DNA of 64,000 nt from Kiritimatiellia bacterium (GCA_050950285.1 JBMNHG010000006.1:105167-169166), one strand, 5' to 3'. Positions 32,401 through 44,337 are shown, counted from the first letter of the stretch. Made by a program: numbers and translations. Notes: generated by a model from the letters alone, not told the origin.

Positions 32401-35400
32401 CGCCGGAACCCGCTCATGGGACGCCGACCCCCACGGCCGCCGCGAGGTGCGCGGGCACGACGACGAGGGACGTGTCGTCACCCGCCTCCGCCGCGACGGC
32501 ACGCAGCACGACTACCTCCACGACGGCCACGGACGCCTGACCGCCCACATCGATCCCCTCTCCCGCATCAACCTCTTCGAGTACGACGCCCACGACCGCC
32601 TCGTCCGCTCCGTCCTGGCCGCCAACACGCCCGAGGCCCGCGCCACCGCCTTCGCCCACGACCACCTCCACCGCGTCACCGCCGTCACCAACGCCCTCGG
32701 CCTTGCGACCACCTTCGCCTACGACGACCGCGACCGCCTGATCCTGACGACCTTCCCAGACGGGAGCGCCCTCTCCGGCACCTGGACCGCCGCCGGCCTG
32801 CGCGCCACCGAGACGCTCCTCGACGCCGCCGGACGCACCCTGCGCCACACCACCTTCGCATACGACGGCGGCGGGCGTCCCGCCACACAGACCACGCAGG
32901 GCCGCGGCCTGCCGTCCCCCGTCACCACGGCCACCGGATTCGACGCCGCCGGCAACCTCGTGCGCGCCGAGGACGCCAACGGGCATGTCACCCGCTTCCG
33001 GTACGACGCCCGCGGCCTTCTCACCAACACCACCGATGCCGCCGGACACACTGTCCGCCGCACCTACGGCCCGCGCGGGATGCCCGCCGCCGTCACCGAC
33101 CCCCTCGGGCGCACCACCAGCCTCCTCTGGACGCCATCCGGCGAGCCCGCCGCCGTCCAACTGCCGGACGGCTCGCTCACGACCAACACGTACGACGCCG
33201 TCGACCGCCTGGCCTCCTTCACCGACACGCGCGGCACATGCGTCAGCCTCGACCGCGACGCCGCCGGGCGCATCACGCGCCGCCACACCCCCCGCTGGGA
33301 GGAGCGGACGTGGTACGACACCGCCGGCTGCGCCACCTCCGTCCTCGATGCCGCCGCCGTGCGCACGGACTACGGCCACGACTGGCTCGACCGCCCGGTG
33401 CTGGCGGTAGACGGACTGGACCGCGGCTGGTGGACGGCCTACGACGCCCTGGACCGCGTCACCGCCACCACCGATCCGCGCGGGCGCAGCCGCCAATACA
33501 CCCACGATGCCCTCGGACGCCGCACCGCCGCCATCCGCCCATCCGGCGCGACCGATTCCTTCGGCTACGACGCTCTCGGCAACTGGACCACCCACACCAA
33601 CGCCGAGGGGCGCGTCTATACCATGTCCTACGACGCCCTGTCGCGCCCCCTCGCCGCCACCAACGCCCTCGGTCAGCAGGCCTTTCTCAACGCCTACGAC
33701 CCCGCCGGCAACCTCACCAACCGCGCCGACGGCGCGGGCAACACCGTCCGCTACACCTACGACGCCCTCGACCGGCTGGTGGCGCGGGATGCCTTCAACC
33801 ACGAAGGGCACGAAAAACACGAAACCTTTACCTACGATGCGGTCGGTAATCTCCTGACCGCCTCGAACGAAACGGCATGCCTCTCATTCACCTACGACGT
33901 GATGGACAGGCTGGCCACCGCCACGACCGTCCTCTCAAATGCCACCTTCACCGCCGCCTACGCCCGCGACGCGGGCGGGCTGGTCACCAACCTGGTCTAT
34001 GCCCCCGGCAAAAGCGTTGCGCGCAGCTACGATGCCGACGGGCTGCTCGCGACGGTCAGCGACTGGCTCGGCCACACGTGGCACTTCGCGTGGGACGGCG
34101 CGGGCAAGCCTACCGGCGGCACGTCGCCCGGCGGCATCGCCGCCACCAACCGCTACGACGCGGCGGGGCGTCTCGCATCGTGGTCGGTCGGCACACTGGC
34201 CGGACGCACCGTCACCCGCGACGCGGCGGGACTCAAGACCCGCGAGGATATCACCGCCGGGCCGCACCCCGCGCCTGCCTTCGTGCGCTACGCCACCAAC
34301 ACCTTCGACGCCGCCGACCGCCTGGTGTCGGCCTCTGTGCGCTACGGCTCGCACACCAACGCCCCCGTTGCGGAGACCTACCTCTACGACGGCAACGGCG
34401 CCCTGACCAGCCTCGTATCCGGTTCAAACAGCGTCTTCACCGCCGCCTACTCCCCCCTCGGCCAGCTCTCCTCTCTGCGTCTCTGCGCCTCTGCGTTAAA
34501 CCACTCCTACGATCCCCTCGGCAACCGCCTCATCTCCGGCGAACGCCTCTTCATCCCCGACCATGCCGACCCCCTCAAGCGTCCGCTGATGGAGTGTGAC
34601 CTGTCCGGCAACGTCCTGCGCTACTACCTCTGGGCACCCGGACGGCTGCTCGGCTTCATAGACGCCGCTTCCGGCGCCCTCACCGTGGCCCACTGCGACG
34701 AGTACGGCTCCGTCGTGGCCCTCACCGACGAGGCCGGCAATACGCTCCACACCGCCTGCTACGGCCCGAATGGTCAGGACTGGGGCGCCACCGGCGCCAA
34801 TCCCACGCCCTTCGCCTGGCTTGGCGGGCATGGTGTTCAATGTGTCGCCGTTTCAGAACACCTCGGCCCGCTCTATCTCACCCGTCACCGTCTCTACAGT
34901 GCCAGTCTCCAGCGCTTCCTCTCGCCCGACCCCCTCGGCCTTGCCGGCGGTCTCAACCTCTACGCCTACGCCGAGGGCGACCCGCTCAGCTACATCGACC
35001 CGCTGGGGTTGTGCGGGGAGAGTGTTCTGGGCGCGGCGGCAAGAGGGTTTCTTGAGGGTTTGGGTGGCGGTTTGTCCATCATCGCCAACACGTTTAGTTT
35101 CGGCATGACGGATAGGCTCGGCTTGACGGATTCGGCGTCCTACGAGGGCAGCGAATACACGGTCTCGCGCGTCGCTTCAACAATCGCCCGCGAAAGCGCG
35201 ATCACCGCCGCGACGCTCGGTATCGGCACAGCGGCGCGCAGTGGCTCCGCCGCCGCCCAGACCGCCTACAAGGGCATTCTGGCGGTAGAGGCGGCAACGG
35301 GCGGCTGGCAGTTCGGAACCGGCGCATGGCAACTCTCCGAGGGCGATTACGAGGCGGGCGCCCTGAACATGGCTGCCGGCGGCCTTCGCGTCGGGGGCAG

Positions 35401-35707
35401 CGTCGCAAGCGCGAGGGCGTTTGCGCCGAAGAGCGAAACAACGGTTATAGGCCGTGTTAAAGACCTCCAGAATCTTAGGCCAGGGGAAAAATCGCTTCTG
35501 GATCGGCTGCCAAACCTAGGCAATCCCAAGGCTAATTGGAAGCAAAATTCCGGTGTACTTCGTCAAGAGATGAACCGTGGATTGCCGATTCGAGATGCAT
35601 CTCCGGGTGACACAGGCGGTCAGTTCTTGAATGCAGAGCGGTATCTGCTCAGGGACAGAGGATGGACATTTGATTCGGCGACAAGTAAATGGATGCCTCC
35701 GCAATGA
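29399..35707 (+). CDS. RHS-repeat polymorphic toxin (2102 aa): Sec signal peptide, transglutaminase-like domain, YD-repeat shell, RHS core, C-terminal toxin domain
   Basis: MKLRPAPLLALLLPLAVATSATG is the signal peptide. The shell starts at DPVEQPSGAYVSEHADLVMAGPAPLAWTRHYDS. Dozens of YD repeats follow (YxYDxxGRL/N). The core ends at LYAYAEGDPLSYIDPLGL (about 35010), followed by a 231-aa variable C-terminus. Confidence 0.9.
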   Translation: MKLRPAPLLALLLPLAVATSATGTPEWTGWRVSGPPAVPPPTTGPVVRPLAMPPSAQPPLAVAPDAVVPCGAPQPVPASGWTPELPQSVPPGDGELIAETARGLDYNWARCYLFVRDHIRFAPSPGILRGAGRTLLDREGNAADQALLLVALLRASGYTATLMHVAPPANEFDGGFRIPLGGTADGYDAAAWLGCATGSATGTWSDVSGLLAAAGLKAYCVGSGDSPAGYDVRLEHYWAGIVLDGYLYYLDPCFKPRRITPHRDILADAGYSRSSLLAAAGGSIGPSHVQGLSAGALGAALDQLAARLASTWHAANPVAAPRAFIGGDSVVPQDIHEDAYPFHGTVEGEPIDFLTQPDSWKNDRRTALTVTHGTASKTLWLDEVATRHVWISYTDSPGHAYPGAVLHVDDETVLAESAGSAQAAVTLTLAVDHAYPDASMSAPYDLVRATTNTYVIVLGMGGDHPGGMRAWAATELARARAADGTGVATRARALQSVGQQWLAQTALVSDLAGRLGGVRRGFFYNIGIAGQSGSPYVDLKNCFTYTAGDASRFGGYMLFGSALEHAVLDQVNAPDAPAVSTVRILALANAAGTPVHFANHGNYAATVRPLLANYPAAQLDAFATALAAGGTLLLPRDGTTVLNQWQGTGWIEHGPSGDTWSTGMIISGGLAGGFTSRPGDVDPDAVDNAHQPARNDNAATAKERAADPVEQPSGAYVSEHADLVMAGPAPLAWTRHYDSRRRFDDGPLGRGWTHGLDAAVVRHADPDARFGRAAPEAAAPTALAVAVADDLLAEQGTLPAGEEARRRTLAALVAQWWTERLTGGTASVRLGARALAFQRRPGGTYAAAPGVTATLAETNGLFTLAERLGDTYAFDAAGRLASVTDRSGNAVTLHYGAQGRLAAVSNSFGRALSVGWTGDRITSVSDSAGRAVAYAYDASGHLTRATDAAGFAWTASYAPDGALLSQTAPGGHTTIRNFYNGLGQVVHQISAAGQPWVFGYAAGTRSWDADPHGRREVRGHDDEGRVVTRLRRDGTQHDYLHDGHGRLTAHIDPLSRINLFEYDAHDRLVRSVLAANTPEARATAFAHDHLHRVTAVTNALGLATTFAYDDRDRLILTTFPDGSALSGTWTAAGLRATETLLDAAGRTLRHTTFAYDGGGRPATQTTQGRGLPSPVTTATGFDAAGNLVRAEDANGHVTRFRYDARGLLTNTTDAAGHTVRRTYGPRGMPAAVTDPLGRTTSLLWTPSGEPAAVQLPDGSLTTNTYDAVDRLASFTDTRGTCVSLDRDAAGRITRRHTPRWEERTWYDTAGCATSVLDAAAVRTDYGHDWLDRPVLAVDGLDRGWWTAYDALDRVTATTDPRGRSRQYTHDALGRRTAAIRPSGATDSFGYDALGNWTTHTNAEGRVYTMSYDALSRPLAATNALGQQAFLNAYDPAGNLTNRADGAGNTVRYTYDALDRLVARDAFNHEGHEKHETFTYDAVGNLLTASNETACLSFTYDVMDRLATATTVLSNATFTAAYARDAGGLVTNLVYAPGKSVARSYDADGLLATVSDWLGHTWHFAWDGAGKPTGGTSPGGIAATNRYDAAGRLASWSVGTLAGRTVTRDAAGLKTREDITAGPHPAPAFVRYATNTFDAADRLVSASVRYGSHTNAPVAETYLYDGNGALTSLVSGSNSVFTAAYSPLGQLSSLRLCASALNHSYDPLGNRLISGERLFIPDHADPLKRPLMECDLSGNVLRYYLWAPGRLLGFIDAASGALTVAHCDEYGSVVALTDEAGNTLHTACYGPNGQDWGATGANPTPFAWLGGHGVQCVAVSEHLGPLYLTRHRLYSASLQRFLSPDPLGLAGGLNLYAYAEGDPLSYIDPLGLCGESVLGAAARGFLEGLGGGLSIIANTFSFGMTDRLGLTDSASYEGSEYTVSRVASTIARESAITAATLGIGTAARSGSAAAQTAYKGILAVEAATGGWQFGTGAWQLSEGDYEAGALNMAAGGLRVGGSVASARAFAPKSETTVIGRVKDLQNLRPGEKSLLDRLPNLGNPKANWKQNSGVLRQEMNRGLPIRDASPGDTGGQFLNAERYLLRDRGWTFDSATSKWMPPQ
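33794..33826 (+). repeat. In-frame short tandem element (cacgaaNNg-type, reverse orientation) inside the main RHS gene
   Basis: ttcaaccacgaagggcacgaaaaacacgaaacc encodes FNHEGHEKHET. Confidence 0.7.
34473..34504 (+). repeat. In-frame triple-tandem element (ctctgcg x3 + ttaaa) inside the main RHS gene
   Basis: ctctgcgtctctgcgcctctgcgttaaaccac encodes LRLCASALNH. It matches the intergenic copy at 44127-44158 at 29 of 32 positions. Confidence 0.75.
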
Positions 35708-36285
35708 GCAAGAAACGAGTTACCGACCGAGCTCTTCTTCGCTTTACTGATGAAGTTAAAGCCCGTTTTGCCTTTCTAGAAGCACGAGGCTTTAACTGTG
35801 TCAGCACCGACGTAACGCTTGTGCGATTCGAGTCGCCAGAACTCGGCGTCAACATTTTCCATGGGCGGCAATCATACGAGATTGGACTTGAACTTGAATC
35901 ATTAGTGTCGAAGACTGAGAAATATTCCTTCTCTGAACTTCTTCGCCTTGTCGATCAGGAGCGAGCCGAGTGCTACAGATCGTTTGCCGCGACGAACGCC
36001 GAGGGAGTAGCCGAAGGAGTGCGTCAGTTGGCGGATAGTGTTCAACAGTGTATCGCTGCCGGTCTCTTGGATGATACCGAACTCTTTTCACGTCTCAAAC
36101 GGCAACGTCATGATCTAACCAAAAAACTCTCTCTGGATGTCCAACTCCAGCACGCTCGACGAAAAACTGAAGCTGCCTGGCATACCAAAGACTACGCAAC
36201 AATAGTAAGAATCATGAAACCTCTGCGTACGTATCTTTCGGCGTCTGAAGTTGCAAAGCTGGAGTTTGCCGAGAAGCATATCTGA
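35704..36285 (+). CDS. Putative cognate immunity protein of the main RHS toxin
   Basis: The ATG overlaps the RHS stop (ATGA). It has no signal peptide, is AT-richer than the genome, and occupies the position typical of an immunity gene. Sequence starts MSKKRVTDRALLRFTDEVKARFAFLEARGF... Confidence 0.6.
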   Translation: MSKKRVTDRALLRFTDEVKARFAFLEARGFNCVSTDVTLVRFESPELGVNIFHGRQSYEIGLELESLVSKTEKYSFSELLRLVDQERAECYRSFAATNAEGVAEGVRQLADSVQQCIAAGLLDDTELFSRLKRQRHDLTKKLSLDVQLQHARRKTEAAWHTKDYATIVRIMKPLRTYLSASEVAKLEFAEKHI

Positions 36286-36400
36286 ACCCTCTGTTTTAAT
36301 CGTTCGCCGGAATTAAATGTTGTCATCTTGCCGCAATCATTTAGATGAAGCGAGTGCCTCGCATCACGCTTCGTCACTCGCTGATGACTTTAGTATGATG

Positions 36401-36690
36401 ACAGATATGCAGCAGGTATCGCATAGGCATGTTACGCATCACATCGCAGCATTAGTTGCTGCGATAGTGCTGCCTTTTGCTGTGCTGGCCTATGCGCCTT
36501 TGCCATCCGATGCTTCGGTTTCACCGGCTCGCGTCACTGTAAGCACAGCACCAGTTAGTGATGGTTTCACCTACGACCCTGTCGGCAACCTCACCAACCG
36601 CGCCGACGGCGCGGGCAACACGGTACGCTACGCCTACGACGCGCTCGACCGGCTGGTGGCGCGGGACGCCTTCGGCCACGATGGGCACCA
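36401..36690 (+). repeat. Dispersed repeat copy A (orphan leader plus first YD repeats)
   Basis: About 90 percent identical by eye to 42141-42430, including an exact 78-bp run (36501-36578 = 42241-42318). Confidence 0.9.
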
Positions 36691-36712
36691 AGCTAGCAGA
36701 GAGGAATTATGA
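36407..36712 (+). CDS. Truncated orphan RHS fragment 1: signal-peptide leader plus about two YD repeats, then a premature end
   Basis: MQQVSHRHVTHHIAALVAAIVLPFAVLAYAPLPSDASV...FTYDPVGNLTNRADGAGNTVRYAYDALDRLVARDAFGHDGHQ. It is homologous to the main RHS at about 33700-33800. Alternative in-frame ATGs lie at 36395 and 36398. Confidence 0.6.
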   Translation: MQQVSHRHVTHHIAALVAAIVLPFAVLAYAPLPSDASVSPARVTVSTAPVSDGFTYDPVGNLTNRADGAGNTVRYAYDALDRLVARDAFGHDGHQASREEL

Positions 36713-37344
36713 AGGAAATCGCCCGATTGGAACAAAACGCGCTCTTCAAGGGAAAGCGCCTGTTCATTTTGCAGGACGATGGACACTTGAAAGTCTACTC
36801 GTCATACGGGGGGCGAAAGCAGGAGTTCTTGGTCGATATTGGCCGCCTCAACCCGGAGCCCTTCCGTGATTCGATGTCGGCCAGGCTTTTTATTGCAATC
36901 TTATGTTTTTTTGCGTTGTTGTCGATCTTGTTTGCTGTTCTCATTATCTTGCGTTGGCCAGAACTGGATGCGGATGCCAAGCTAGTTCTTTTTTTGGCTT
37001 TAGGTGTGTTCGGCTTTGGAGCTTTGCTATGCTGGCGCGAGTATCTGCGACAGAGCTACGACACCTATGCTTTTCACGACGTATTCACGGGACAAAGCAT
37101 CATTTTTCTGGCAAATATTCCGTCGGAAGACCTCTTCATGGATTTTGTCAGCAAGCTGCAAGCCGAAATTCGTTCTATACAGAAGCGAAACGCATCTGCC
37201 GCAAGGCTGTCGCTGGTGGAACAGATCGAAGAGCTCGGAAGGCTGAAAGCAGAAGGCTTACTGGATGACGAGGAGTTTGCCAGGGCTAAAAGCAACCTCA
37301 TTGAAGCCTCGCGACTGCCAGCGGCCATAGGGTTCAAACCTTAA
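36709..37344 (+). CDS. Membrane protein with a C-terminal SHOCT-like domain (possible orphan immunity protein)
   Basis: Two TM helices (LFIAILCFFALLSILFAVLIIL, LVLFLALGVFGFGALLCW) and the C-terminal LVEQIEELGRLKAEGLLDDEEFARAKSNLI. ATGA overlap with the upstream fragment. Confidence 0.6.
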   Translation: MKEIARLEQNALFKGKRLFILQDDGHLKVYSSYGGRKQEFLVDIGRLNPEPFRDSMSARLFIAILCFFALLSILFAVLIILRWPELDADAKLVLFLALGVFGFGALLCWREYLRQSYDTYAFHDVFTGQSIIFLANIPSEDLFMDFVSKLQAEIRSIQKRNASAARLSLVEQIEELGRLKAEGLLDDEEFARAKSNLIEASRLPAAIGFKP

Positions 37345-37408
37345 TTGCATTGCTGATTGAACTGTAACAGAAGAATAGAACCATGAAGAACAATCTAGCA
37401 CGGAATTA

Positions 37409-39541
37409 ATGAGGACTTTCGCATACGTCAACAAGGCGAGATATTCCGCGCTAGCCATAATGCTAGTTGCGGTCTTTCCGGTATTTGCTTCTCTTCCGAG
37501 ATACGGCTTTCTAGACACCGATGCCGAGGTCGTCCGTTCCCACAGCGCGGGTAACACGGTACGCTACGCCTACGACGCGCTCGACCGGCTGGTGGCGCGG
37601 GATGCCTTCAACCACGAAGGGCACGGAAAACACGAAACCTTCGCCTACGATGCCGTCGGCAACCTGCTCGCTGCCTCCAATGAAGTGGCGCGCCTGTCGT
37701 TCAGCTACGACGTGATGGACCGGCTGGCCACCGCCACGACCGTTGTTTCAAACGCCACCTTCACCGCCGCCTACGCCCGCGACACGGGCGGGCTGGTTAC
37801 CAACCTCGTCTATGCCCCCGGCAAAAGCATCGCGCGCACCTACGACGCCGACGGGCGGCTCGCGACCGTCTCCGACTGGCTCGGCCACACGTGGCACTTC
37901 GCGTGGGATGGCGCGGGCAAGCCCACCGGCGGCACGTCGCCCGGCGGCATCGCCGCCACCAACCGCTACGACGCGGCGGGGCGTCTCGAATCGTGGTCGG
38001 TCGGTACGCTGGCCGGACGTACCGTCACCCGCGACGCGGCGGGGCGTCTCGAATCGTGGTCGGTCGGTACGCTGGCCGGACGTACCGTCACCCGCGACGC
38101 GGCGGGGCTCAAGACCCGCGAGGATATCACCGCCGGACCGCACCCGGCCCCTGCCTTCGTGCGCTACGCCACCAACACCTTCGACGCCGCCGACCGCCTG
38201 GTGTCGGCGCAGGTGCGGTACGGCTCGCACACCAACGCCGCCGTCTCCGAGACCTACCTCTACGACGGCAACGGCGCTTTAACAAGCCTCGTATCAGGCT
38301 CAAACACCATCTTCACCGCCACCTACTCCCCCCTCGGCCAGCTCTCCTCACTTTTCGTGCCTTTCGTGCCTTTCGTGGTTGAATGCACCTACGATCCCCT
38401 CGGCAACCGCCTCATCTCCGGCGACCGCCTCTTCATCCCCGACCATGCCGATCCCCTCAAGCGCCCGCTGATCGAGGCCGACGCCGCCACCGGCGCGCCG
38501 CTGCGCTACTACCTCTGGGCGCCCGGACGCCTGCTCGGCTTCATAGACGCCGCTTCCGGCGCGCTCACCGTGGCCCACTGCGACGAATACGGCTCCGTCG
38601 TGGCCCTCACCGACGAGGCCGGCAACACGTTACACACCGCCTGCTACGGCCCCAACGGTCAGGACTGGGGCGCCACCGGCGCCAACCCCACCCCCTTCGC
38701 CTGGCTCGGCGGGCATGGTGTGCAGCAGGTCGCCGTTTCAGAACACCTCGGCCCGCTCTACCTCACGCGCCACCGCCTCTACAGCGCCAGTCTCCAGCGC
38801 TTCCTCTCACCCGACCCCCTCGGTCTCGCAGGCGGTTTGAACCTCTACGCCTACGCCGAGGGCGACCCGCTGAGCTACATCGACCCGCTGGGATTGTGTC
38901 CTGAAAACAACTATTGGGAGACAGGCAGTTACCTCGGAGACGTCGGGCAGTTCGTTGCGGGTTACGGTGATGCTATTGCAGGTACGGTCGGTGGTCTCTA
39001 CAATGTTGTGCGCCATCCGATACAGACGGCGGCGGGATTGTTCAACGCTGTTGCTCATCCCGTACAGACAGCCCAGGCTATGGCCGATGGCATAGCCGAA
39101 ACATGGGACAGCGGGAACAGGGGGCGCGGCCAGATCGTCGGCAACACCTTGATCATAGCCGCAACCATCGCCGCACCGCATGCAAAGACAAGTAGCATAG
39201 CGAAAACAGCAAATGCTGCGAAAAGCGGACAAACGTTTGAAATTATTGATGGCGTTCGTAGAGCGAAAGCAGCACAGTCTCTTGGAAAACAGAGTGTGGC
39301 CGCTAATATCTTTAATGCAGATGGCCAGCTTATCGGTCAAGGCAACATTCCAATTAGAGCTTTGACTTCGCCAAACAAGTCGGTAATTGATATGTCCACG
39401 CAAGCCCAATTCGACCGATACATGAGTATCCAGCGTGGTTTGCAAGAGGGTGCAAGTTTACCGCCAATTTCAGTAACGCCTGGTAGTCGTGGCATTCCTG
39501 TCTCAGATGTCATTTTCGACGCAATTGGAGCAGCACAGTGA
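37409..39541 (+). CDS. Orphan RHS C-terminal module 2: own signal-peptide leader, ~450 aa of YD-repeat shell plus RHS core, alternative toxin tip with a ParB/Srx-fold motif
   Basis: MRTFAYVNKARYSALAIMLVAVFPVFASLPR is the leader. Positions 37540-38895 are about 90 percent identical by eye to the main RHS at 33735-35010, including DPLSYIDPLGL. The sequence then diverges, and the tip contains FEIIDGVRRAKAAQSLGKQSVAANIF. Confidence 0.85.
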   Translation: MRTFAYVNKARYSALAIMLVAVFPVFASLPRYGFLDTDAEVVRSHSAGNTVRYAYDALDRLVARDAFNHEGHGKHETFAYDAVGNLLAASNEVARLSFSYDVMDRLATATTVVSNATFTAAYARDTGGLVTNLVYAPGKSIARTYDADGRLATVSDWLGHTWHFAWDGAGKPTGGTSPGGIAATNRYDAAGRLESWSVGTLAGRTVTRDAAGRLESWSVGTLAGRTVTRDAAGLKTREDITAGPHPAPAFVRYATNTFDAADRLVSAQVRYGSHTNAAVSETYLYDGNGALTSLVSGSNTIFTATYSPLGQLSSLFVPFVPFVVECTYDPLGNRLISGDRLFIPDHADPLKRPLIEADAATGAPLRYYLWAPGRLLGFIDAASGALTVAHCDEYGSVVALTDEAGNTLHTACYGPNGQDWGATGANPTPFAWLGGHGVQQVAVSEHLGPLYLTRHRLYSASLQRFLSPDPLGLAGGLNLYAYAEGDPLSYIDPLGLCPENNYWETGSYLGDVGQFVAGYGDAIAGTVGGLYNVVRHPIQTAAGLFNAVAHPVQTAQAMADGIAETWDSGNRGRGQIVGNTLIIAATIAAPHAKTSSIAKTANAAKSGQTFEIIDGVRRAKAAQSLGKQSVAANIFNADGQLIGQGNIPIRALTSPNKSVIDMSTQAQFDRYMSIQRGLQEGASLPPISVTPGSRGIPVSDVIFDAIGAAQ
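37607..37639 (+). repeat. In-frame cacgaa-type element in orphan module 2
   Basis: ttcaaccacgaagggcacggaaaacacgaaacc. Confidence 0.7.
37970..38095 (+). repeat. Perfect 63-bp tandem duplication (2 copies) inside orphan RHS module 2
   Basis: gacgcggcggggcgtctcgaatcgtggtcggtcggtacgctggccggacgtaccgtcacccgc occurs at 37970-38032 and again, identically, at 38033-38095. It duplicates DAAGRLESWSVGTLAGRTVTR. The main RHS has a single copy. Confidence 0.95.
38351..38383 (+). repeat. In-frame triple-tandem element (ctttcgtgc x3 + gttgaa) in orphan module 2. It is the inverted counterpart of the cacgaa-type element.
   Basis: cttttcgtgcctttcgtgcctttcgtggttgaa encodes LFVPFVPFVVE. Its reverse complement matches 37607-37639 at 27 of 33 positions. 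It occupies the position where the main RHS carries the ctctgcg element. Confidence 0.75.
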
Positions 39542-39786
39542 TTATTGAACAGAAGAAGATTGCGGCTATGAAAGCACTGCAATCCGTCATTATCCATGGT
39601 CGTATTATGGCTTACGAGAAGGCGGACTACAATAGAATAGCCGACCTGCTGGATCGCGCTGAATACTTAGCGGGTATGTTTTACGAGAATCGGGATATGA
39701 CGGTGACATTTCGAGAGAACTTGGTTGAAATTGCTGAACTTCACAATTGTGGAATCGCATTAACGCAATTTGACACAAATTGTTGA
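39538..39786 (+). CDS. Putative immunity protein for the ParB-fold toxin tip
   Basis: 82 aa. The GTG start overlaps the toxin stop (GTGA). It is AT-rich and has no signal peptide. Confidence 0.55.
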   Translation: MIIEQKKIAAMKALQSVIIHGRIMAYEKADYNRIADLLDRAEYLAGMFYENRDMTVTFRENLVEIAELHNCGIALTQFDTNC

Positions 39787-40119
39787 TTTTTCGGCAATTA
39801 CGATGAAAGCCTTGTTTTACGAGCTTTACGGGACTTTGACAATTCTGCCCTTCAAGGATCATTTTTCCAAGACGCATCTGTTTGGTATTGCACCCACAAT
39901 TGGACGAGTCGCGGCCAGAATTCATCGGTCTTGCGAAAGGCATTGCGTGACGGTTTCGAGATACACGATGCTTCCGCTCATAGACCGAATTGGTTCCCCA
40001 ATCCTACGTTGCTACGCCCTGATCGGACAGTTGGGCAGAGTTTCTTGGGCGCAGAGCGAAACATCTTGGACAATAAGGGTTTGATTTTGAGTTCCGACGG
40101 AATATATGTACCTAAGTGA
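39787..40119 (+). pseudogene. Start-less relic of a toxin tip homologous to the main RHS C-terminal domain
   Basis: The open frame directly after the stop at 39784-39786 reads FGNYDESLVLRALRDFDNSALQGSFFQDASVWYCTHNWTSRGQNSSVLRKALRDGFEIHDAS...VGQSFLGAERNILDNKGL. The main toxin reads KANWKQNSGVLRQEMNRGLPIRDAS...GGQFLNAERYLLRDRGW. There is no ATG before 39931. Confidence 0.6.
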
Positions 40120-40517
40120 AACCAATGAGCACAACCACGCAGAACGAGTTTGAATACCAGGTTCTCGCCTGTTTTCGGAAACACGCAAACACATTGCGTT
40201 TGTGTGAACCCACATTCAGGAGAGAGGGTTATGTCATTACCGCGACAATGTCGGCAGGGCCATCCGGGAAAGTAGAGCTTCGATATGGTCCTGCCGAGTA
40301 TGTTACTGAAATCTTTATCTACACATCGGCGGACAATAAACGATGGAGTTTGACTGACCTATTGAATAATGAGCAAATTCGCACTTGGATACTTAAAAAC
40401 AAACCGGATATGTCAGGTAGATCTCGTCTTGAGACAGAGATAACCTTTGCGTTTTCTCTTCTGAACGAAGGACTGGTAGATATTCCTGATTTCCACTGGT
40501 TGGCCAGTAAGGCGTGA
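40116..40517 (+). CDS. Putative immunity protein paired with the relic toxin tip (weakly resembles the 35704-36285 product)
   Basis: The GTG at 40116 overlaps the relic stop; an alternative ATG is at 40125. VELRYGPAEYVTEIFIYTSADNKRWSLTDLL compares with VNIFHGRQSYEIGLELESLVSKTEKYSFSELL in the first immunity protein. Confidence 0.55.
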   Translation: MKPMSTTTQNEFEYQVLACFRKHANTLRLCEPTFRREGYVITATMSAGPSGKVELRYGPAEYVTEIFIYTSADNKRWSLTDLLNNEQIRTWILKNKPDMSGRSRLETEITFAFSLLNEGLVDIPDFHWLASKA

Positions 40518-41290
40518 AGATGCAACGTGTTATCGCAGTTTGGCAACAGCTTGCGGCTACAACGATACAGGTCATCGCCGCGTTGTCTCTTTGCGCTACG
40601 ACACCTATGGTTCGTACTGCGGACTGCGGCGTGCATGATTGCTACCACAAATACACGTTCGCCGCCAGCCGGCCATCCGGCGCGGACAACAGCGTCGCCT
40701 ACCGGCCACCGCCATATACCCATCAGCCAAGCGGCGAACTGTACGACACGCTCCTCGATCCGCGCTCCCGCGCCCTGATGCATCAAAACATGCTGCTTCC
40801 CGAAGGCGCCATCGGCACCCCGCTTGGCGACCACATGGCCAAGAGCATGGTAGTGAACACGTTCACAGCTCCAGGCCTCGCCATCATCGGCGAAGGCATA
40901 TCAACAGCAGTGGGAAGGCTTTTCGGCGCGCCAAAGATAAACACTCCTCATGGCGTTGCCATTCAGTCTGGGACGCCGGAAGCTCAAGCCGCATTGCGAC
41001 AAGTCCAAAGTGGCACGACGGTCTATAGGCAGGGGCAACTTGGTTTTCAAAACACAGGGAATGCACAATACTGGTCTTTACAGAACCCCGCATCCACCCC
41101 CAATTACGCCAACCAAATGGGGATGCCTTCTGCCGCCGGTGGAGAGACGTGGATTATGGGGGGACAATTGAAACCCGGGAGTCCTGTCATCACGCGTCCT
41201 GCTCCAGCTATTCCCCCAAATGCTGGTGGAACCATTGAAGCTGTCACTCAACCCGGCGGGGTCAGCATTAACTGGTTCCATATGCCCTGA
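40514..41290 (+). CDS. Free-standing toxin-like protein (no RHS repeats) with an N-terminal hydrophobic segment; family unassigned
   Basis: GTGA overlap with the upstream gene; alternative ATG at 40520. The N-terminus is QQLAATTIQVIAALSLCATTP. The C-terminal ~110 aa read GTTVYRQGQLGFQNTGNAQYWSLQNPASTPNYANQMGMPSAAGGETWIMGGQLKPGSPVITRPAPAIPPNAGGTIEAV. Confidence 0.5.
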   Translation: MKMQRVIAVWQQLAATTIQVIAALSLCATTPMVRTADCGVHDCYHKYTFAASRPSGADNSVAYRPPPYTHQPSGELYDTLLDPRSRALMHQNMLLPEGAIGTPLGDHMAKSMVVNTFTAPGLAIIGEGISTAVGRLFGAPKINTPHGVAIQSGTPEAQAALRQVQSGTTVYRQGQLGFQNTGNAQYWSLQNPASTPNYANQMGMPSAAGGETWIMGGQLKPGSPVITRPAPAIPPNAGGTIEAVTQPGGVSINWFHMP

Positions 41291-41299
41291 GGAGTCAAA

Positions 41300-41689
41300 A
41301 TGCGTATGCCGTCGCAGATAATTACTAGATTGCTTGAAGGCGAACACTTCAATATGGATCAACGAAAGGCTTTAGGTCTTCTTCCTGCAGAGACTTTGAG
41401 CTATGCCGAGGTTCGAGACCATTTAGCACTTCTGCTTGCCGACCGAGAATGGTTCCCTGCTAAGCCTTCTGATTCACACAACACGGATGCGATTCACGAG
41501 GGCATCTTTATTCACCATGTCTCTCCAAACAGGTTCATTTGCTACGCCCGCCGAGCATCAACTGAAAATCCTCTTGTCCTAGCCGAGCAGTCAGCTTGCG
41601 AATTCGGATCGGCACGGGAAGCTGCGGATTACTATCTAAGATGGGAATTGAATCTTCCCGGCCGTTTGGATGGATGGGTCGTTGAGTAG
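41300..41689 (+). CDS. Small cytoplasmic protein, candidate immunity protein
   Basis: 129 aa. The RBS gaggag lies 6-11 nt upstream of the ATG. It is AT-rich and sits directly downstream of the toxin-like ORF. Confidence 0.5.
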   Translation: MRMPSQIITRLLEGEHFNMDQRKALGLLPAETLSYAEVRDHLALLLADREWFPAKPSDSHNTDAIHEGIFIHHVSPNRFICYARRASTENPLVLAEQSACEFGSAREAADYYLRWELNLPGRLDGWVVE

Positions 41690-41697
41690 GCGAACAT

Positions 41698-42057
41698 ATG
41701 ATGAGAAAAATTATGTATCACCCTTCTGATTTGCGCGGCGAAGAAATATCCGCCGTGTGTTTCGTGCGTGATTACGTGGAATTCCATTTTGATGGCGCGA
41801 TACTTCGCAGTCTATCGAATCCGATCATCTTGATTCAGGGCGTAGAACATCGCTTTCCTGAACCTGGTTCGCGTGATGCACTTTGTAAGCTTATCGGTTC
41901 AACGGTTGTAGATGTGACGTTGGAAGAGTTCCAAGCGTTGAAGGTGACTACGACAGACGGCTGCAAAATCACAATTCCACTTGACAACAGGCATCTTCGT
42001 GGTTCGGAAGCTATGCACTTCGTTCCCTACCTTAACGGGCCAATTCAAGTGTGGTAG
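41698..42057 (+). CDS. Small cytoplasmic protein, second candidate (orphan) immunity protein
   Basis: 119 aa, beginning 8 nt after the previous stop, with the same AT-rich composition. Confidence 0.45.
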   Translation: MMRKIMYHPSDLRGEEISAVCFVRDYVEFHFDGAILRSLSNPIILIQGVEHRFPEPGSRDALCKLIGSTVVDVTLEEFQALKVTTTDGCKITIPLDNRHLRGSEAMHFVPYLNGPIQVW

Positions 42058-42140
42058 CTCGCTGACACCCATAGTTCGACAAATGATATTGTCGGTTATG
42101 ATTGGAAGTTTTGCTATTCATTGAGTCTCTAACAGTTTAT

Positions 42141-42430
42141 ACAGATATGCAACAGGCATCGCATAGGCATGTAAAGCATTGCGTCGCAGCATTTGTTGCG
42201 ACGATAGTGCTGCCTTTTGCCGTTCGAGCCTATGCACCTTTGCCATCCGATGCTTCGGTTTCACCGGCTCGCGTCACTGTAAGCACAGCACCAGTTAGTG
42301 ATGGTTTCACCTACGACCTCGCCGGCAACCTCACCAACCGCGCCGACGGCGCGGGCAACACGGTACGGTACGCCTACGACGCCCTCGACCGGCTGGTGGC
42401 GCGGGACGCCTTCAACCACGAAGGGCACGA
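42141..42430 (+). repeat. Dispersed repeat copy B (orphan leader plus first YD repeats)
   Basis: See copy A. Both begin acagatatgca(g/a)cagg. Confidence 0.9.
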
Positions 42431-42761
42431 AAAACACGAAACCTTTACCTACGACGCGGTGGGGAATCTGCTGACCGCCTCTAATGATGCGGCGCGCCTC
42501 TCGTTCAGCTACGACGTGATGGACAGGCTGGTCACCGCCACGACCGCCGTTTCCAACGCCACTTTCTCCGCCGCCTACGCCCGCGACGCGGGCGGGCTGG
42601 TCACCAACCTGATGTACGCCCTCGGCAAAAGCGTCACGCGCACCTACGATGCCGACGGGCGGCTCGCGACGGTCAGCGACTGGCTCAAACGCCCGCTTGC
42701 AAAATCACCACAAAAAGGCCACCATTTCACCGTGATTCAGAGAAATAGTTGGGGGCACTGA
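42147..42761 (+). CDS. Truncated orphan RHS fragment 3: same leader as fragment 1 plus ~150 aa of YD repeats. Homology is broken at 42686/42687.
   Basis: MQQASHRHVKHCVAAFVATIVLPFAVRAYAPLPSDASV...NHEGHEKHETFTYDAVGNLL...RTYDADGRLATVSDWL, followed by the unrelated tail KRPLAKSPQKGHHFTVIQRNSWGH. The ORF-track start at 42102 is a TTG. Confidence 0.6.
   Translation: MQQASHRHVKHCVAAFVATIVLPFAVRAYAPLPSDASVSPARVTVSTAPVSDGFTYDLAGNLTNRADGAGNTVRYAYDALDRLVARDAFNHEGHEKHETFTYDAVGNLLTASNDAARLSFSYDVMDRLVTATTAVSNATFSAAYARDAGGLVTNLMYALGKSVTRTYDADGRLATVSDWLKRPLAKSPQKGHHFTVIQRNSWGH
42411..42443 (+). repeat. In-frame cacgaa-type element in orphan fragment 3
   Basis: ttcaaccacgaagggcacgaaaaacacgaaacc, identical to 33794-33826. 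Confidence 0.7.
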
Positions 42762-42885
42762 AGAGTTGCGGGAGCAACTCGGCAAGAGGTTCATCACCGG
42801 GGTGGTGCTCTACACCGGCAACAATCTGATCCCGTTTGGCGACCAACTCTGGCTCGTGCCCCTGCCGGTCCTGTGGGCGCCGTAA
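42736..42885 (+). pseudogene. C-terminal stub of a DUF4143-type AAA+ ATPase (COG1373-like)
   Basis: FREIVGGTEELREQLGKRFITGVVLYTGNNLIPFGDQLWLVPLPVLWAP resembles the conserved C-terminus of that family. It has no start codon, and a stop lies immediately upstream in frame. Confidence 0.5.
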
Positions 42886-42914
42886 TCTTCCTTCATCCTG
42901 TTATACGAAAATCT

Positions 42915-42952
42915 CGAAAAGGCACCGCCCTGCTTTTTCGTTTGTTCAGTGT
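42915..42952 (+). repeat. 38-bp direct repeat, left copy (upstream of abiEi)
   Basis: cgaaaaggcaccgccctgctttttcgtttgttcagtgt. It differs from the copy at 44000-44037 at about 4 positions. Confidence 0.8.
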
Positions 42953-42992
42953 AATAGTTGCTTTTAATCAGCAAATACGATAACTTGAGGCA

Positions 42993-43628
42993 ATGAATTT
43001 TGAGAAATTGGTAGCATTGGTTGCTGACGAGCCGGTTTTTTCGTCCAGCCTTTTGTTGTCCGGGATGGCGGATCCGCAGCGGCTGCGGTTGCAGTTGTCG
43101 CGCTGGGTGAAGGCCGGGCGGCTGCATCAGATCCGCCGCGGACTGTATGCCCTGGCACCGCCGTGGCGCAAGGTCGAGCCGCACCCGTTCCTGGTTGCCA
43201 ACAGCCTCCGGCGCGGAAGCTATGTGAGCCTGCAATCCGCACTGGCATGGCATGGGGTCATTCCCGAACAGGTGCCGGTGGTCACCAGCGTGGGGCCCGG
43301 GCGTCCCGGAACGACGACCACCCCGCTCGGCGCTTTTCAGTACCGCTATCTTGCCGAGGAGTTGCGGTTCGGTTTTACGCGAATCGAGGTTGCTCCCCGC
43401 CAGTTCGCCTTTATGGCATCGCCGGAGAAGGCGCTGCTCGATTTGGTTCACCTGACCCCCGGTGCGGACTCGGAAGCATTTCTCCGGGAGCTGCGTCTAC
43501 AAAACCCGGGGGTATTCCAGCCTGCGGAGCTTGGGGAACTGGCCCGGCGCAGCGGGAAACCCAAGCTCGTGAGGGCATCCCGAATGATCCGCACGTTGCT
43601 GGCCGAAGAGGAGGGGGTGCCCTTGTGA
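42993..43628 (+). CDS. AbiEi-family type IV toxin-antitoxin antitoxin / transcriptional regulator
   Basis: LRLQLSRWVKAGRLHQIRRGLYALAP...PFLVANSLRRGSYVSLQSALAWHGVIPEQV is typical of AbiEi_4. Confidence 0.75.
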   Translation: MNFEKLVALVADEPVFSSSLLLSGMADPQRLRLQLSRWVKAGRLHQIRRGLYALAPPWRKVEPHPFLVANSLRRGSYVSLQSALAWHGVIPEQVPVVTSVGPGRPGTTTTPLGAFQYRYLAEELRFGFTRIEVAPRQFAFMASPEKALLDLVHLTPGADSEAFLRELRLQNPGVFQPAELGELARRSGKPKLVRASRMIRTLLAEEEGVPL

Positions 43629-43631
43629 AGG

Positions 43632-43967
43632 ATGGTTTACGACAAGGCTTCGCTTTTCGCAGGCAAGCTGCATGCCGTACTGAGCCGCAAATGGACCAAA
43701 GGGCGCGATCTTTACGACCTTGCCTGGTACTTGGCGGACCGCCACTGGCCCGCGCCGAATCTCGACCAGCTCAATGCCGCCCTGGCCCAGACCAGCTGGG
43801 AAGGGCCGACGCTGACCGCTGCCAACTGGCGGAGCGAATTGGCCCGGCGGCTTGAAGCCGTTGAGTGGGAGCGCGCACGCGCGGACGTCAGTCCCTTCCT
43901 GGAACGGACTTCCGACATCGACTTGGTTTCGGCCGAAACATTGGGCAAGTTGCTGGAAGCCCCCTGA
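43632..43967 (+). CDS. AbiEii/AbiGii nucleotidyltransferase toxin, C-terminal 111 aa only (N-terminal catalytic half missing)
   Basis: ASLFAGKLHAVLSRKWTKGRDLYDLAWYL matches the C-terminal region of AbiEii. The gene begins 3 nt after the abiEi stop and is far shorter than the family norm. Confidence 0.6.
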   Translation: MVYDKASLFAGKLHAVLSRKWTKGRDLYDLAWYLADRHWPAPNLDQLNAALAQTSWEGPTLTAANWRSELARRLEAVEWERARADVSPFLERTSDIDLVSAETLGKLLEAP

Positions 43968-43999
43968 AGGAGTAAATGAGTGCCTTACGGATCGACAAG

Positions 44000-44037
44000 C
44001 GAAAAGACGCCGCCCCGCTTTTTTGTTTGTTCAGTGT
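44000..44037 (+). repeat. 38-bp direct repeat, right copy (downstream of the truncated abiEii)
   Basis: cgaaaagacgccgccccgcttttttgtttgttcagtgt. Confidence 0.8.
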
Positions 44038-44158
44038 GTTTCGTGGTTCATACGAACCCCAAAAACCCTTGGCGTTCTTGGCGTCTCGGCAGTTCAAAAA
44101 AAACCGATCCATGCCACTCAAAAAACCTCTACGTCTCTGCGCCTCTGCGTTAAATTAC
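44027..44158 (+). repeat. Intergenic cluster of three short tandem-repeat elements of the same style
   Basis: The three elements are gtgtgtttcgtggttca, ccttggcgttcttggcgtctcggcagttcaaaaaaaa, and ctctacgtctctgcgcctctgcgttaaattac. Confidence 0.7.
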
Positions 44159-44337
44159 TAACTCGGCCACAATTCATACTGCAACACAGGGAACGGTTTT
44201 CCAACCCGTGACACGGACAGGAATGTCCGTGCCCCTTTCCCGACTCCAAATTCCAGCTCCTCATGCCTGAATCTCCGTGAGCAGCGCTATTTGTGGCCGG
44301 GTTCGTAAACCGCCTGGGATCTCGATGGCCGTCGTGG

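What the first reader, a model, noticed from the sequence alone, without database searches (positions are those of the whole stretch)
33794..44158. Intergenic-type triple-tandem mini-repeats sit in frame inside the RHS genes at the points where the copies diverge
**Element style.** Three short element types share one design: an 8-9-mer repeated about three times, followed by gtt(c/g)aa or ttaaa.
- cttttcgtg cctttcgtg cctttcgtg gttgaa (38351);
- ctctgcgt ctctgcgc ctctgcgt taaa (34473);
- ccttggcgt tcttggcgt ctcggca gttcaaaa (44067).

All three styles are clustered in the non-coding stretch 44027-44158.

**In-frame copies in RHS coding sequence.**
- The reverse-oriented cacgaa form encodes NHEGHEKHET at 33794, 37607 and 42411. 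Orphan fragment 1 loses homology at exactly this point.
- At the equivalent downstream site, the main gene carries the ctctgcg form (LRLCASALN), while orphan 2 carries the ttcgtg form (LFVPFVPFVVE). The flanks are otherwise about 90 percent identical.

Repeat-element insertion or exchange inside an ORF that keeps the reading frame is unusual. The elements could be tolerated insertions in surface loops of the RHS shell, or recombination and breakpoint hot spots that shape cassette exchange.
Basis: seen in the sequence. Interest (0 to 1): 0.65.

Follow-up and report, generated by a model that had tools for sequence, protein, structure and literature searches.

The report
Intergenic mini-repeats built into RHS toxin genes
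Short (~30 base) triple-repeat DNA elements that normally lie between genes in many bacterial phyla are built, in frame, into two fixed positions of a family of RHS toxin genes. Those two positions are also where the exchangeable toxin-carrying gene ends most often begin or break.

Summary
All listed motifs are at the stated coordinates.

**What the elements are.** Each is about 30 nt: almost always exactly three 8-9 nt units plus a short G(T)TnAA-like tail. The class is widespread. A TTCGTG scan hit more than 120 loci in each of genomes (many phyla) and viral contigs. A CTCTGCG scan hit more than 120 metagenome loci. TTCGTG arrays are 64% intergenic, although only 12% of the scanned sequence is intergenic. 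Rfam has no matching family, and no paper in the library holds the sequences.

**What happens in the RHS genes.** In this Kiritimatiellia RHS clade, two codon positions carry such an element in nearly every close homolog. The type, orientation and unit number differ between close relatives. Distant homologs have ordinary YD-repeat sequence there.

**Link to cassette boundaries.**
- 23 of 52 orphan-type homologs begin their homology exactly at the downstream edge of site 1.
- Several truncated copies end at site 2.
- Two junctions were confirmed at DNA level.

**Structure.** An AlphaFold model places both peptides in regular beta-hairpins of the shell.

**Most likely reading.** These are selfish or neutral extragenic repeats captured at cassette junctions and tolerated in the protein. 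They mark, and perhaps promote, rearrangement. Their molecular function and the way they spread remain unknown.

The parts
29399..35707 (+). Main RHS gene. It has a signal peptide, DUF6531, a YD-repeat shell, a core ending in DPLGLC and a C-terminal toxin tip.
   Evidence: The ORF and its translation are, with the ATG at 29399. Pfam finds RHS_repeat (E = 6.5e-92) and DUF6531. The model of residues encoded by 33650-35050 matches solved Rhs shells (8qjc, TM 0.79).
33794..33826 (-). Site-1 element in the main gene. It is the reverse orientation of (TTCGTGnnn)3 plus the GGTTGAA tail, and reads FNHEGHEKHET.
   Evidence: Seen. The same core and tail are seen in other genomes. The peptide is modelled as strand, turn (NHEGH), strand.
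34473..34500 (+). Site-2 element in the main gene: (CTCTGCGy)3 plus TTAAA, reading LRLCASALN.
   Evidence: Seen. It is 27 of 28 identical to the intergenic copy at 44127-44154. Word depth is about 100 times that of the flanks in four metagenomes. The peptide is modelled as a hairpin with its turn at C279-A280.
36317..36712 (+). Orphan fragment 1. It is a truncated copy of the 5' part of orphan 3. Homology ends inside a decayed site-1 element (36671-36693).
   Evidence: Translation and sequence are. Repeat family D4 (36401-36691 against 42141-42431, 92%) ends inside the element.
37409..39541 (+). Orphan 2 (710 aa). It has a signal-peptide-like leader, the RHS C-terminal third and a different toxin tip.
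   Evidence: Translation is and Pfam RHS_repeat.
37607..37639 (-). Site-1 element in orphan 2 (reverse TTCGTG type, with one substitution).
38351..38383 (+). Site-2 element in orphan 2: (CTTTCGTGc)3 plus GTTGAA, reading LFVPFVPFVVE.
42102..42761 (+). Orphan 3. It is truncated at about 42697, and an AbiEi/AbiEii module follows it.
42411..42443 (-). Site-1 element in orphan 3, identical to the copy in the main gene.
44034..44154 (+). Intergenic cluster of three forward-oriented elements at the far edge of the RHS locus. It holds a partial TTCGTG type (44034-44050), a TTGGCG type plus GTTCAAAA (44067-44099) and a CTCTGCG type plus TTAAA (44126-44154).
   Evidence: Seen. The fold is no better than shuffles (z = -1.1 and -0.3) and there is no terminator-like site. 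Depth at 44105-44158 is about 2400 times the flank depth in X1 (7382 against about 3) and above about 1000 times in all four metagenomes. A like cluster lies at the edge of the RHS locus in L244.

Best explanation
**What it is.** The motifs are copies of a widespread class of small extragenic repeat elements for which I found no published description. Each element is about 30 nt: exactly three 8-9 nt units with a conserved core, followed by a short tail. The cores include TTCGTG, TCTGCG, TCTGTG, TTGGCG and TTCGCG. The tail is G(T)TnAA, GTGAA, CGAGA and the like.

**Where it normally lies.** Between genes, with the tail towards the nearest gene. Elements often occur as tail-outward pairs or as clusters of mixed types.

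**What happened in this RHS family.** In this Kiritimatiellia RHS family, such elements have been taken into the reading frame at two fixed places in the last third of the gene. Those places are the junctions of the modular C-terminal cassettes.
- Site 1 is the usual 5' limit of the orphan cassettes.
- Site 2 is a second limit.

**Most likely history (inferred, not shown).**
1. Elements that flank incoming or displaced cassettes were fused into the gene when cassettes were joined.
2. Alternatively, elements landed next to an older element already at the junction.
3. They persist because three units keep the frame and the peptide can stand in for one YD hairpin of the shell.
4. Once there, they act as blocks of non-homology and as break points in later rearrangements.
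5. This is why paralogs that are about 90% alike differ just there.
For: **A real element class**
- A TTCGTG scan hit more than 120 genome loci across many phyla, with the same core, period and tail. A scan for the same motif with a following G also hit more than 120 viral contigs. A CTCTGCG scan hit more than 120 metagenome loci.
- TTCGTG arrays are 64% intergenic against 12% intergenic sequence.
- Arrays almost always have exactly three units: 143 of 149 TTCGTG arrays and 133 of 145 CTCTGCG arrays.
- Neighbouring elements: 80 tail-outward pairs, 76 tandem pairs, only 10 tail-inward pairs.

**The RHS copies belong to that class**
- They have the same cores and the same tails, in both orientations.
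- The site-2 copy is 27 of 28 identical to the nearby intergenic copy.
- Site-2 word depth is about 100 times that of its flanks in four metagenomes.

**Fixed positions, changing types**
- The alignment of 84 sequences and the DNA of five further loci show different types at the same codons.
- Site 1 carries two to four units in different homologs.
- Homologs below about 55% identity have no element at site 2.

**Junctions**
- 23 of 52 orphan-type homologs start their homology at main-gene residues 1470-1479, the downstream edge of site 1.
- 3' ends cluster at residues 1689-1699, at site 2.
- DNA junctions lie inside the site-1 element at 36691 and at the left edge of site 2 in L244. Sixteen contigs carry that protein, and the same junction appears in run X9.

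**Tolerated in the protein**
- Both peptides are modelled as strand-turn-strand.
- The model matches solved Rhs shells.

**General behaviour**
- One orthologous intergenic spot in two related viral contigs holds two different types.
Against: - No insertion event with clean ends or a target-site duplication was seen.
- At site 2 the net gain over element-free homologs is only 4-6 codons, so the event is not a simple insertion of 24-34 nt.
- At site 1 the ATCTGCG type could have grown in place from native codons (SRSA-D).
- In the Kiritimatiellia DNA at hand, the elements are rarer outside RHS genes than inside them. This fits selection for them in RHS, or a site-directed process, better than passive capture.
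- Many homologs keep 12-75 residues of RHS homology upstream of site 1. The element is therefore not always the junction itself.
- Gene context in the scanned loci rests on crude ORF calls.
Confidence: 0.45

Rival explanations
1. The elements are working recombination signals. A dedicated enzyme cuts or joins at them. This would resemble integron attC sites or shufflon sfx sites, which vary in sequence but keep one architecture. C-terminal cassettes would then be swapped at site 1 or site 2.
For: - Homology boundaries pile up at the very edge of site 1: 23 of 52.
- Breaks lie exactly at the element edges.
- The architecture is conserved while the sequence varies.
- Both sites are kept throughout the clade.
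Against: - Pfam found no recombinase, integrase or transposase in the ORFs scanned between 35.7 and 46.2 kb of the window. None appears among the precomputed Pfam hits for the called genes of L121, L122, L244 or L367.
- Site-1 types differ between cassettes of one locus in L121.
- The same elements lie beside ordinary housekeeping genes.
- About 1.3 kb of 85-98% identity already allows ordinary homologous recombination.
Confidence: 0.15
2. The elements are cis-acting signals read on DNA or RNA by a conserved factor that recognises three sites at 8-9 nt spacing. Possible roles are a transcription roadblock, a pause site, or control of RNA stability or translation. Selection would keep them in the RHS genes to tune expression of the toxin end, the immunity genes or the orphans.
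For: - The fixed number of three units and the conserved 6-7 nt cores across phyla and phages point to recognition by a factor.
- Tail-outward pairs are depleted between divergent genes: 2 of 34.
- Both RHS sites always hold some element.
- The elements are present in RNA-derived contigs.
Against: - Many unrelated cores stand in for one another at the same place.
- The elements have no stable fold, no terminator features and no Rfam family.
- Spacers of paired arms are only weakly complementary, 55% against 45% for shuffled partners.
- There is no clear bias of orientation relative to transcription.
- No factor is known.
Confidence: 0.15
3. The RHS peptides are ordinary low-complexity coding repeats. 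They arose in place by slippage of 8-9 nt native units, and resemble intergenic elements only by convergence.
For: - Unit number varies from 2 to 4 at site 1 (SRSAQSAD, SRSVSSVD, SRSVPSVPSVD, SRSAESVSSVPSVD).
- The first ATCTGCG unit overlaps codons that look native.
- The element-free L366 sequence at site 2 (CCTCGCCGCTAAC) loosely resembles one unit plus a tail.
Against: - The tails (GTTGAA, TTAAA, CGAGA, GTT, GAT) match the commonest intergenic tails.
- The TTCGTG type occurs in reverse orientation, with its tail, at site 1, and in forward orientation at site 2.
- The site-2 copy is 27 of 28 identical to a nearby intergenic copy.
- Close homologs carry unrelated cores at one site.
Confidence: 0.1
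4. The pattern is an assembly artefact. Metagenome assemblers join unrelated contigs at a high-copy 30-mer.
For: - The CTCTGCG element has 100 to 2400 times the flank depth.
- Unitigs break there.
Against: - The same in-frame layout with matching flanks appears in independent assemblies from JGI, ENA and NCBI.
- The CACGAA element has no excess depth.
- The reading frames stay open for more than 2000 codons.
Confidence: 0.03

Closest known systems
Rickettsia palindromic elements (RPEs): repeat elements inserted in frame in protein-coding genes
   Same: A dispersed non-coding repeat family is found inside ORFs. The frame is kept, and the element is translated into a peptide that the fold tolerates (review PMC10969869).
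   Different: - RPEs are about 150 bp, palindromic, and scattered over many unrelated genes.
- The elements here are about 30 nt and made of three direct repeats.
- They are confined to two fixed positions of one gene family.
- Their type changes between close relatives, and they coincide with recombination boundaries.
REP / BIME / REPIN extragenic repeats of Proteobacteria (from my own knowledge)
   Same: - Both are short (20-40 nt), high-copy and extragenic.
- Families are specific to lineages.
- Both are frequent as inverted doublets with a variable spacer, with many singletons.
- Both are rare between divergent genes.
   Different: - A REP is itself an imperfect palindrome with a conserved GTAG end, and is tied to RAYT transposases.
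- These elements have no self-complementarity.
- Their arms are only weakly complementary.
- No transposase is linked to them.
Short tandem intergenic repeats: cyanobacterial STRR heptamers and the TAACTGA repeats of Beggiatoaceae, Cyanobacteria and Bacteroidetes (PMC4679880)
   Same: - Both are short direct repeats that are mostly intergenic.
- Both are shared by distant phyla with no evident means of transfer.
- Both occasionally lie inside ORFs, mostly at the periphery of proteins.
- Period-7 arrays of this kind abound in the same loci.
   Different: - Those have period 7, a variable copy number (2-43) and no tail.
- In the Guaymas Basin 'Maribeggiatoa' (BOGUAY) genome, most TAACTGA repeats lie just upstream of start codons.
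- The elements here have period 8-9, a fixed count of three units and a defined tail.
- They show no steady link to start codons.
Rhs main gene plus orphan cassette arrays (for example Salmonella; PMC3967940, seen in the listing only)
   Same: A full-length rhs gene is followed by immunity genes and by C-terminal 'orphan' fragments. The orphans share a conserved stretch with the main gene, so homologous recombination can swap the toxin ends.
   Different: - The orphans here are long (450-760 aa).
- All of them have signal-peptide-like leaders.
- Their 5' limits cluster at a repeat element inside the shell region, far upstream of the usual PxxxxDPxGL boundary.

Membership tests
REP / REPIN | Each unit is an imperfect palindrome able to form a hairpin | tested here: not met
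   The units are direct repeats. The intergenic cluster folds no better than shuffles (z = -1.1 and -0.3).
REP / REPIN | Extragenic, high copy, often as inverted doublets | tested here: met
   - 64% intergenic against 12% of sequence.
- 57 of 141 have an inverted partner upstream.
- 80 tail-outward pairs against 10 tail-inward pairs.
- Depth excess of 100 to 2400 times.
REP / REPIN | A cognate RAYT (Y1 transposase) in the genome | not testable with these tools
   No whole genome of a carrier could be scanned.
MITE | Terminal inverted repeats around an internal sequence that is conserved between copies, with target-site duplications | tested here: not met
   Paired arms exist, but the spacers between them (19-183 nt) are unrelated between loci. 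I saw no duplication at the outer ends on inspection.
RPE-like in-frame repeat insertion | A dispersed repeat lies inside an ORF, keeps the frame and is structurally tolerated | tested here: met
   The frames are open. The peptides are modelled as hairpins with pLDDT 81-91. Homologs differ at the sites.
Contingency locus (phase variation by simple-sequence repeats) | Unit-number changes within a population that shift the frame | tested here: inconclusive
   No 8-nt gain or loss appears at 34473-34500 in contigs of four metagenomes. However, contigs drop rare variants.
Integron attC / shufflon sfx sites | A site-specific recombinase encoded nearby, and recombination products joined at the sites | tested here: not met
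   Pfam found no recombinase in the ORFs scanned between 35.7 and 46.2 kb of the window, and none appears among the precomputed Pfam hits for the called genes of the related loci. Junctions at the sites do exist.
Intrinsic terminator | A GC-rich hairpin followed by a run of U | tested here: not met
   No terminator-like site lies in 43800-44400. In pairs, T-rich tails lie 5' and A-rich tails 3' of the arms.
Diversity-generating retroelement variable region | A template repeat, a reverse transcriptase, and changes specific to adenines | not tested
   Only the Pfam scans bear on it, and they found no reverse transcriptase. The differences between copies are whole-element replacements, not A-to-N changes.
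Rhs main and orphan cassette array | A full rhs gene with a YD shell and a core ending in DPxGL, followed by immunity genes and homologous C-terminal fragments | tested here: met
   The same layout is seen in L121, L122 and L367.

The most novel reading that the evidence does not exclude
The triple-repeat elements are an undescribed, cross-phylum kind of genetic element. They would be written or replaced at fixed positions by a directed process, such as homing to an existing element or copying from a short host-specific template. In this RHS family they would serve as the junction signals that define and mobilise modular toxin cassettes. That would amount to a sequence-variable, architecture-conserved recombination site lying inside a coding region.
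Probability: 0.15. Interest if true: 0.85.

Novelty: new variant of a known kind. Interest (0 to 1): 0.62.

Why it matters
**For RHS biology.** RHS and other polymorphic toxins evolve by swapping C-terminal cassettes. What fixes the swap points is poorly understood. Here the swap points of one large family coincide with copies of a dispersed repeat element that is translated as part of the shell. If the elements cause the breaks, they are a simple and testable determinant of toxin modularity.

**For the element class.** The class is abundant in Verrucomicrobiota, Planctomycetota, Acidobacteriota, Desulfobacterota, methanotrophs, Bacteroidota, Chloroflexota and their viruses. It has a strict three-unit design, and types replace one another at fixed positions. 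It is absent from Rfam, and no paper in the library holds the sequences. Its function and its way of spreading are open questions that could be studied in cultured carriers.

**A practical point.** Gene callers translate these elements into spurious peptides, and assemblers break contigs at them.

Tried and rejected
- **Rfam.** A search of 33000-45000 with E up to 10, and of 16 loci with paired elements, found nothing but one tRNA.
- **Literature.** A search for six element sequences found no paper. A search for TTCGTG, tandem and intergenic gave only unrelated papers.
- **Terminator or hairpin idea.** Rejected. The cluster has no significant fold, there is no U tract, the arm spacers are barely complementary, and tail-inward pairs are eight times rarer than tail-outward pairs. 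A plain hairpin would not predict that asymmetry.
- **Promoter idea.** No sigma-70-like site is present, and pairs are depleted between divergent genes.
- **SD or anti-SD idea.** Dropped, because Bacteroidota copies keep the TTCGTG core but have A/T-rich spacers.
- **Gene function.** Genes next to the elements are assorted housekeeping genes, with no pattern. The planned Pfam census was dropped because many crude ORFs were spurious.
- **Start and stop distances.** Not conclusive. The A/T-rich tail itself ends spurious ORFs in GC-rich DNA.
- **RNA evidence.**
  - Only two low-share metatranscriptome runs hold the RHS region, and contig data showed no splice-like joint at the elements.
  - The supposed Akkermansia locus turned out to be a freshwater MAG with contig data only.
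- **Plasmid collection.** No convincing match.
- **First BLAST boundary analysis.** Misled by off-diagonal YD-repeat matches. It was redone with local alignment to the last 520 residues.
- **P0039.** Its contig could not be fetched.

Full report
**1. The observation**

The window is about 70% G+C. It holds a 2102-codon RHS gene (29399-35707) with a signal peptide, DUF6531, a YD-repeat shell and a DPLGLC core end. Downstream lies a lower-GC region with small ORFs and three RHS C-terminal fragments:
- fragment 1 (36317-36712);
- orphan 2 (37409-39541);
- truncated orphan 3 (42102-42761).

- Tandem Repeats Finder reports the arrays at 34472, 38353 and 44126.
- The TTCGTG pattern is far above chance: 11 matches against 1.36 expected.
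- The CTCTGCG count alone is weak: 4 against 1.72 expected, and 9 of 100 shuffles reach 4. The matches are two three-unit arrays, each followed by TTAAA.
- One caveat: the TTCGTG style in the non-coding cluster is only about 1.5 units.

Flanks of the main gene and orphan 2 are 85-98% identical in 60-nt windows. Identity falls to 60-72% at site 2. Fragment 1 loses homology inside the site-1 element.

**2. What the motifs are in general**

*Distribution.* A scan of one genome per species for TTCGTGN3TTCGTGN3TTCGTG stopped at its 120-locus limit. The hits spanned Verrucomicrobiota, Planctomycetota, Acidobacteriota, Desulfobacterota, Methylococcales, Burkholderiales, Chloroflexota, Bacteroidota, Spirochaetota and others. 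The contexts share one design: three units of period 9, then G, then mostly T and an A-rich tail such as GTTAAA, GTAAAA or GTGAAT. A metagenome scan for (CTCTGCGN)3 gave the same picture, with tails GTGAA, GTAAA, TTAAA, CGAGA and TGAGA. Viral contigs also carry the TTCGTG type, up to six copies in 14 kb.

*Position.* With crude ORF calls covering 88% of the sequence, 99 of 154 arrays were intergenic. Most of the 'coding' ones lay in spurious antisense ORFs or at ORF ends.

*Unit number.* It is almost always three: 143 of 149 and 133 of 145 arrays. Arrays of four or more are rare even among arrays that did not seed the search. This is unlike slippage-driven microsatellites.

*Types and genomes.* Types are specific to genomes. 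TTCGTG arrays are nearly absent from CTCTGCG-seeded loci, and the reverse is also true.

*Arrangement of neighbours.*
- 57 of 141 arrays have an inverted partner 19-183 nt upstream, and only 7 have one downstream.
- Over all period 8-10 triple repeats, neighbours within 250 nt are tail-outward 80 times, tandem 76 times and tail-inward 10 times.
- Spacers between paired arms are unrelated between loci.
- The variable bases of the two arms are only weakly complementary: 55% against 45% for shuffled partners for TTCGTG, and 66% against 37% for CTCTGCG.
- Pairs lie between convergent genes (11) or co-directional genes (21), and almost never between divergent genes (2).

*Function.* The local cluster has no significant fold, no terminator and no promoter match. 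Rfam has no family for these elements, and no paper in the library contains the sequences. I therefore treat them as an apparently undescribed class of extragenic repeat of unknown function. The nearest known things are REP/REPIN elements and the short intergenic direct repeats of Cyanobacteria and Beggiatoaceae (PMC4679880). In four digester metagenomes the CTCTGCG element has 100 to 2400 times the word depth of its single-copy flanks, so it is a very common sequence in that community. The CACGAA element has no such excess.

**3. What is special in the RHS genes**

The organism is a Kiritimatiellia from anaerobic digesters. I aligned the three window copies with 81 homologs and read the two sites.

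*Site 1.* Close homologs carry FNHEGHEKHET, HHEEHEGREG, SAESVSSVPSVD, SAGSAQSAV, SAQSAD, SVSSVD and others.

*Site 2.* They carry LRLCASALN, LFVPFVPFVVE, NLRTSAPSAV, NLRESVPSVD, WRSLASLAVD, SQPSTLNPQ, LRLSASARD and others.

*DNA check.* DNA of five further loci shows that these peptides are true elements with their tails:
- TTCAAC(CACGAAnnn)3, reverse;
- (ATCTGCGnn)3GTTC;
- (ATCTGTGnn)4GAT;
- (CTCTGCGy)3TTAAA or CGAGA;
- (CTTGGCGTn)3GTTGA;
- (CTCAACC)3;
- (CCAGTTT)4.

*Absence in distant homologs.* Homologs below about 55% identity have ordinary YD-repeat sequence at site 2, for example GQVSSLAANSYSYD. The net gain at site 2 is only 4-6 codons. Site 1 carries two to four units in different homologs.

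*Density.* In the Kiritimatiellia DNA I could read, these elements are rarer outside RHS genes than inside them. Outside RHS, the window has only the cluster at 44034-44154. L244 has a like cluster at the far edge of its RHS locus.

*Mixture of types.* One RHS locus mixes several types (L121), although single genomes elsewhere favour one type.

**4. Link to cassette boundaries**

I aligned 120 homologs locally to the last 520 residues of the main protein.
- 23 of 52 orphan-type proteins begin their homology at residues 1470-1479, the downstream edge of the site-1 element (1465-1475).
- 21 begin 12-75 residues upstream of site 1.
- Three begin 17 residues upstream of site 2.
- Among copies that end early, four end at residues 1689-1699, at site 2.

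At DNA level, fragment 1 breaks inside the site-1 element. The terminal orphan of L244 breaks exactly at the left edge of site 2. Sixteen contigs carry that protein, and the same junction appears as a loose end in run X9.

All orphans have hydrophobic, signal-peptide-like leaders. One leader family is joined to three different RHS positions.

No recombinase, integrase or transposase appears in the Pfam scans of the window ORFs or in the precomputed Pfam hits for the related loci.

**5. Structure**

An AlphaFold2 model of the residues encoded by 33650-35050 has mean pLDDT 86.6 and pTM 0.86. It matches solved Rhs shells (8qjc, TM 0.79).
- Site 1 is strand 43-49, turn N50-H54, strand 55-62.
- Site 2 is strand 273-278, turn C279-A280, strand 281-287.
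- Block pLDDT over the two sites is 81-91, against 93-97 in well-modelled blocks nearby.

The elements therefore replace one YD hairpin each. They do not form loose loops.

**6. A general property**

Two related viral contigs share a short intergenic spot between the same two genes. One holds a TTCGTG-type element and the other an ATCTGTG-type element in the same orientation. Change of type at a fixed position is thus not peculiar to RHS. Mixed-type clusters in one orientation are common. This fits new elements landing beside old ones, but that is an inference.

**7. Explanation and rivals**

*Shown.*
- The RHS motifs are members of a widespread extragenic element class.
- They occupy two fixed in-frame positions.
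- Their type and number change between close relatives.
- These positions are the commonest homology boundaries of the cassettes.
- The peptides fit the fold.

*Inferred.* The elements entered at cassette junctions. They were carried in as flanks of joined cassettes, or they landed next to an older element. They persist because they are harmless, and they then act as blocks of non-homology and as break points (confidence 0.45).

*Rivals.*
- A dedicated recombination signal (0.15).
- A cis-acting signal kept by selection (0.15).
- Growth in place by slippage (0.10).
- An assembly artefact (0.03).

*What weighs against simple passive capture.* The elements are denser in RHS genes than in nearby intergenic DNA, and both sites are held throughout the clade.

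**8. Novelty**

In-frame repeat elements are known from Rickettsia (RPEs; PMC10969869). Rhs orphan arrays are known too (PMC3967940, seen only in the listing). Four things are new here:
- the element class itself;
- its strict three-unit design;
- the change of type at fixed positions;
- its coincidence with RHS module boundaries.

I rate it a new variant of a known kind, with interest 0.62.

Noticed in passing
window 44159-44320: The stretch just after the mini-repeat cluster has about 100-150 times the depth of single-copy flanks in four metagenomes. It holds a hairpin (gacacggacaggaatgtccgtgcc). It is another high-copy element, of a different kind; hairpin-type sequences of similar style lie at 14030-14110 in L244.
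   Followed up: partly
window 37969-38094: A perfect 63-nt tandem duplication lies inside orphan 2. It is in frame and doubles a 21-residue stretch of one YD repeat. The main gene has a single copy.
   Followed up: partly
window 37409, 36317 and 42102; proteins P0017, P0036, P0041, P0052, P0100, P0105, P0112, P0116: Every RHS 'orphan' starts with a hydrophobic, signal-peptide-like leader. One conserved leader (MKK..IVISLFV..HTTGLCFAS..ILET.N..LETD) is joined to three different RHS positions in different contigs. The orphans may therefore be expressed, secreted short RHS proteins rather than silent spares.
   Followed up: partly
window 42697-43967: Orphan 3 is cut at about 42697, not at an element. 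An AbiEi/AbiEii toxin-antitoxin pair follows it (42993-43628 and 43632-43967). The AbiEii ORF matches only the last part of the family profile.
   Followed up: partly
L244 10803-10835 and 13880-13912: A 33-bp direct repeat (ATTACCTCGCGCCCTTGCGGCGGTTGCATTCGC) brackets a GmrSD/HNH gene and an EcoRI-type methylase gene. The pair looks like an inserted defence island next to the truncated RHS orphan.
   Followed up: no
loci L005, L021, L032, L044, L072, L120 and others: The loci that carry the 9-nt triple repeats are also full of period-7 tandem arrays (GATGTCA, TCTGACT, GGGTTCA, GTGAATA and others). These often form long arrays and resemble cyanobacterial STRR repeats.
   Followed up: partly
window 63557-63914: A 78-nt (or 156-nt) tandem repeat of about four copies, 83-86% matching, lies near the end of the window.
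   Followed up: no
window 36709-37344: A 211-aa ORF with a C-terminal SHOCT domain directly follows the truncated fragment 1.
   Followed up: no
L052 about 4046-4070; L045 about 6393-6435: Outside RHS, the TTCGTG element is occasionally read through by real genes. One case is the C-terminal tail of a GyrA-like protein in an Anaerolineae MAG. Another is an eight-unit array inside a 922-aa ORF in a Chloroflexota MAG.
   Followed up: partly
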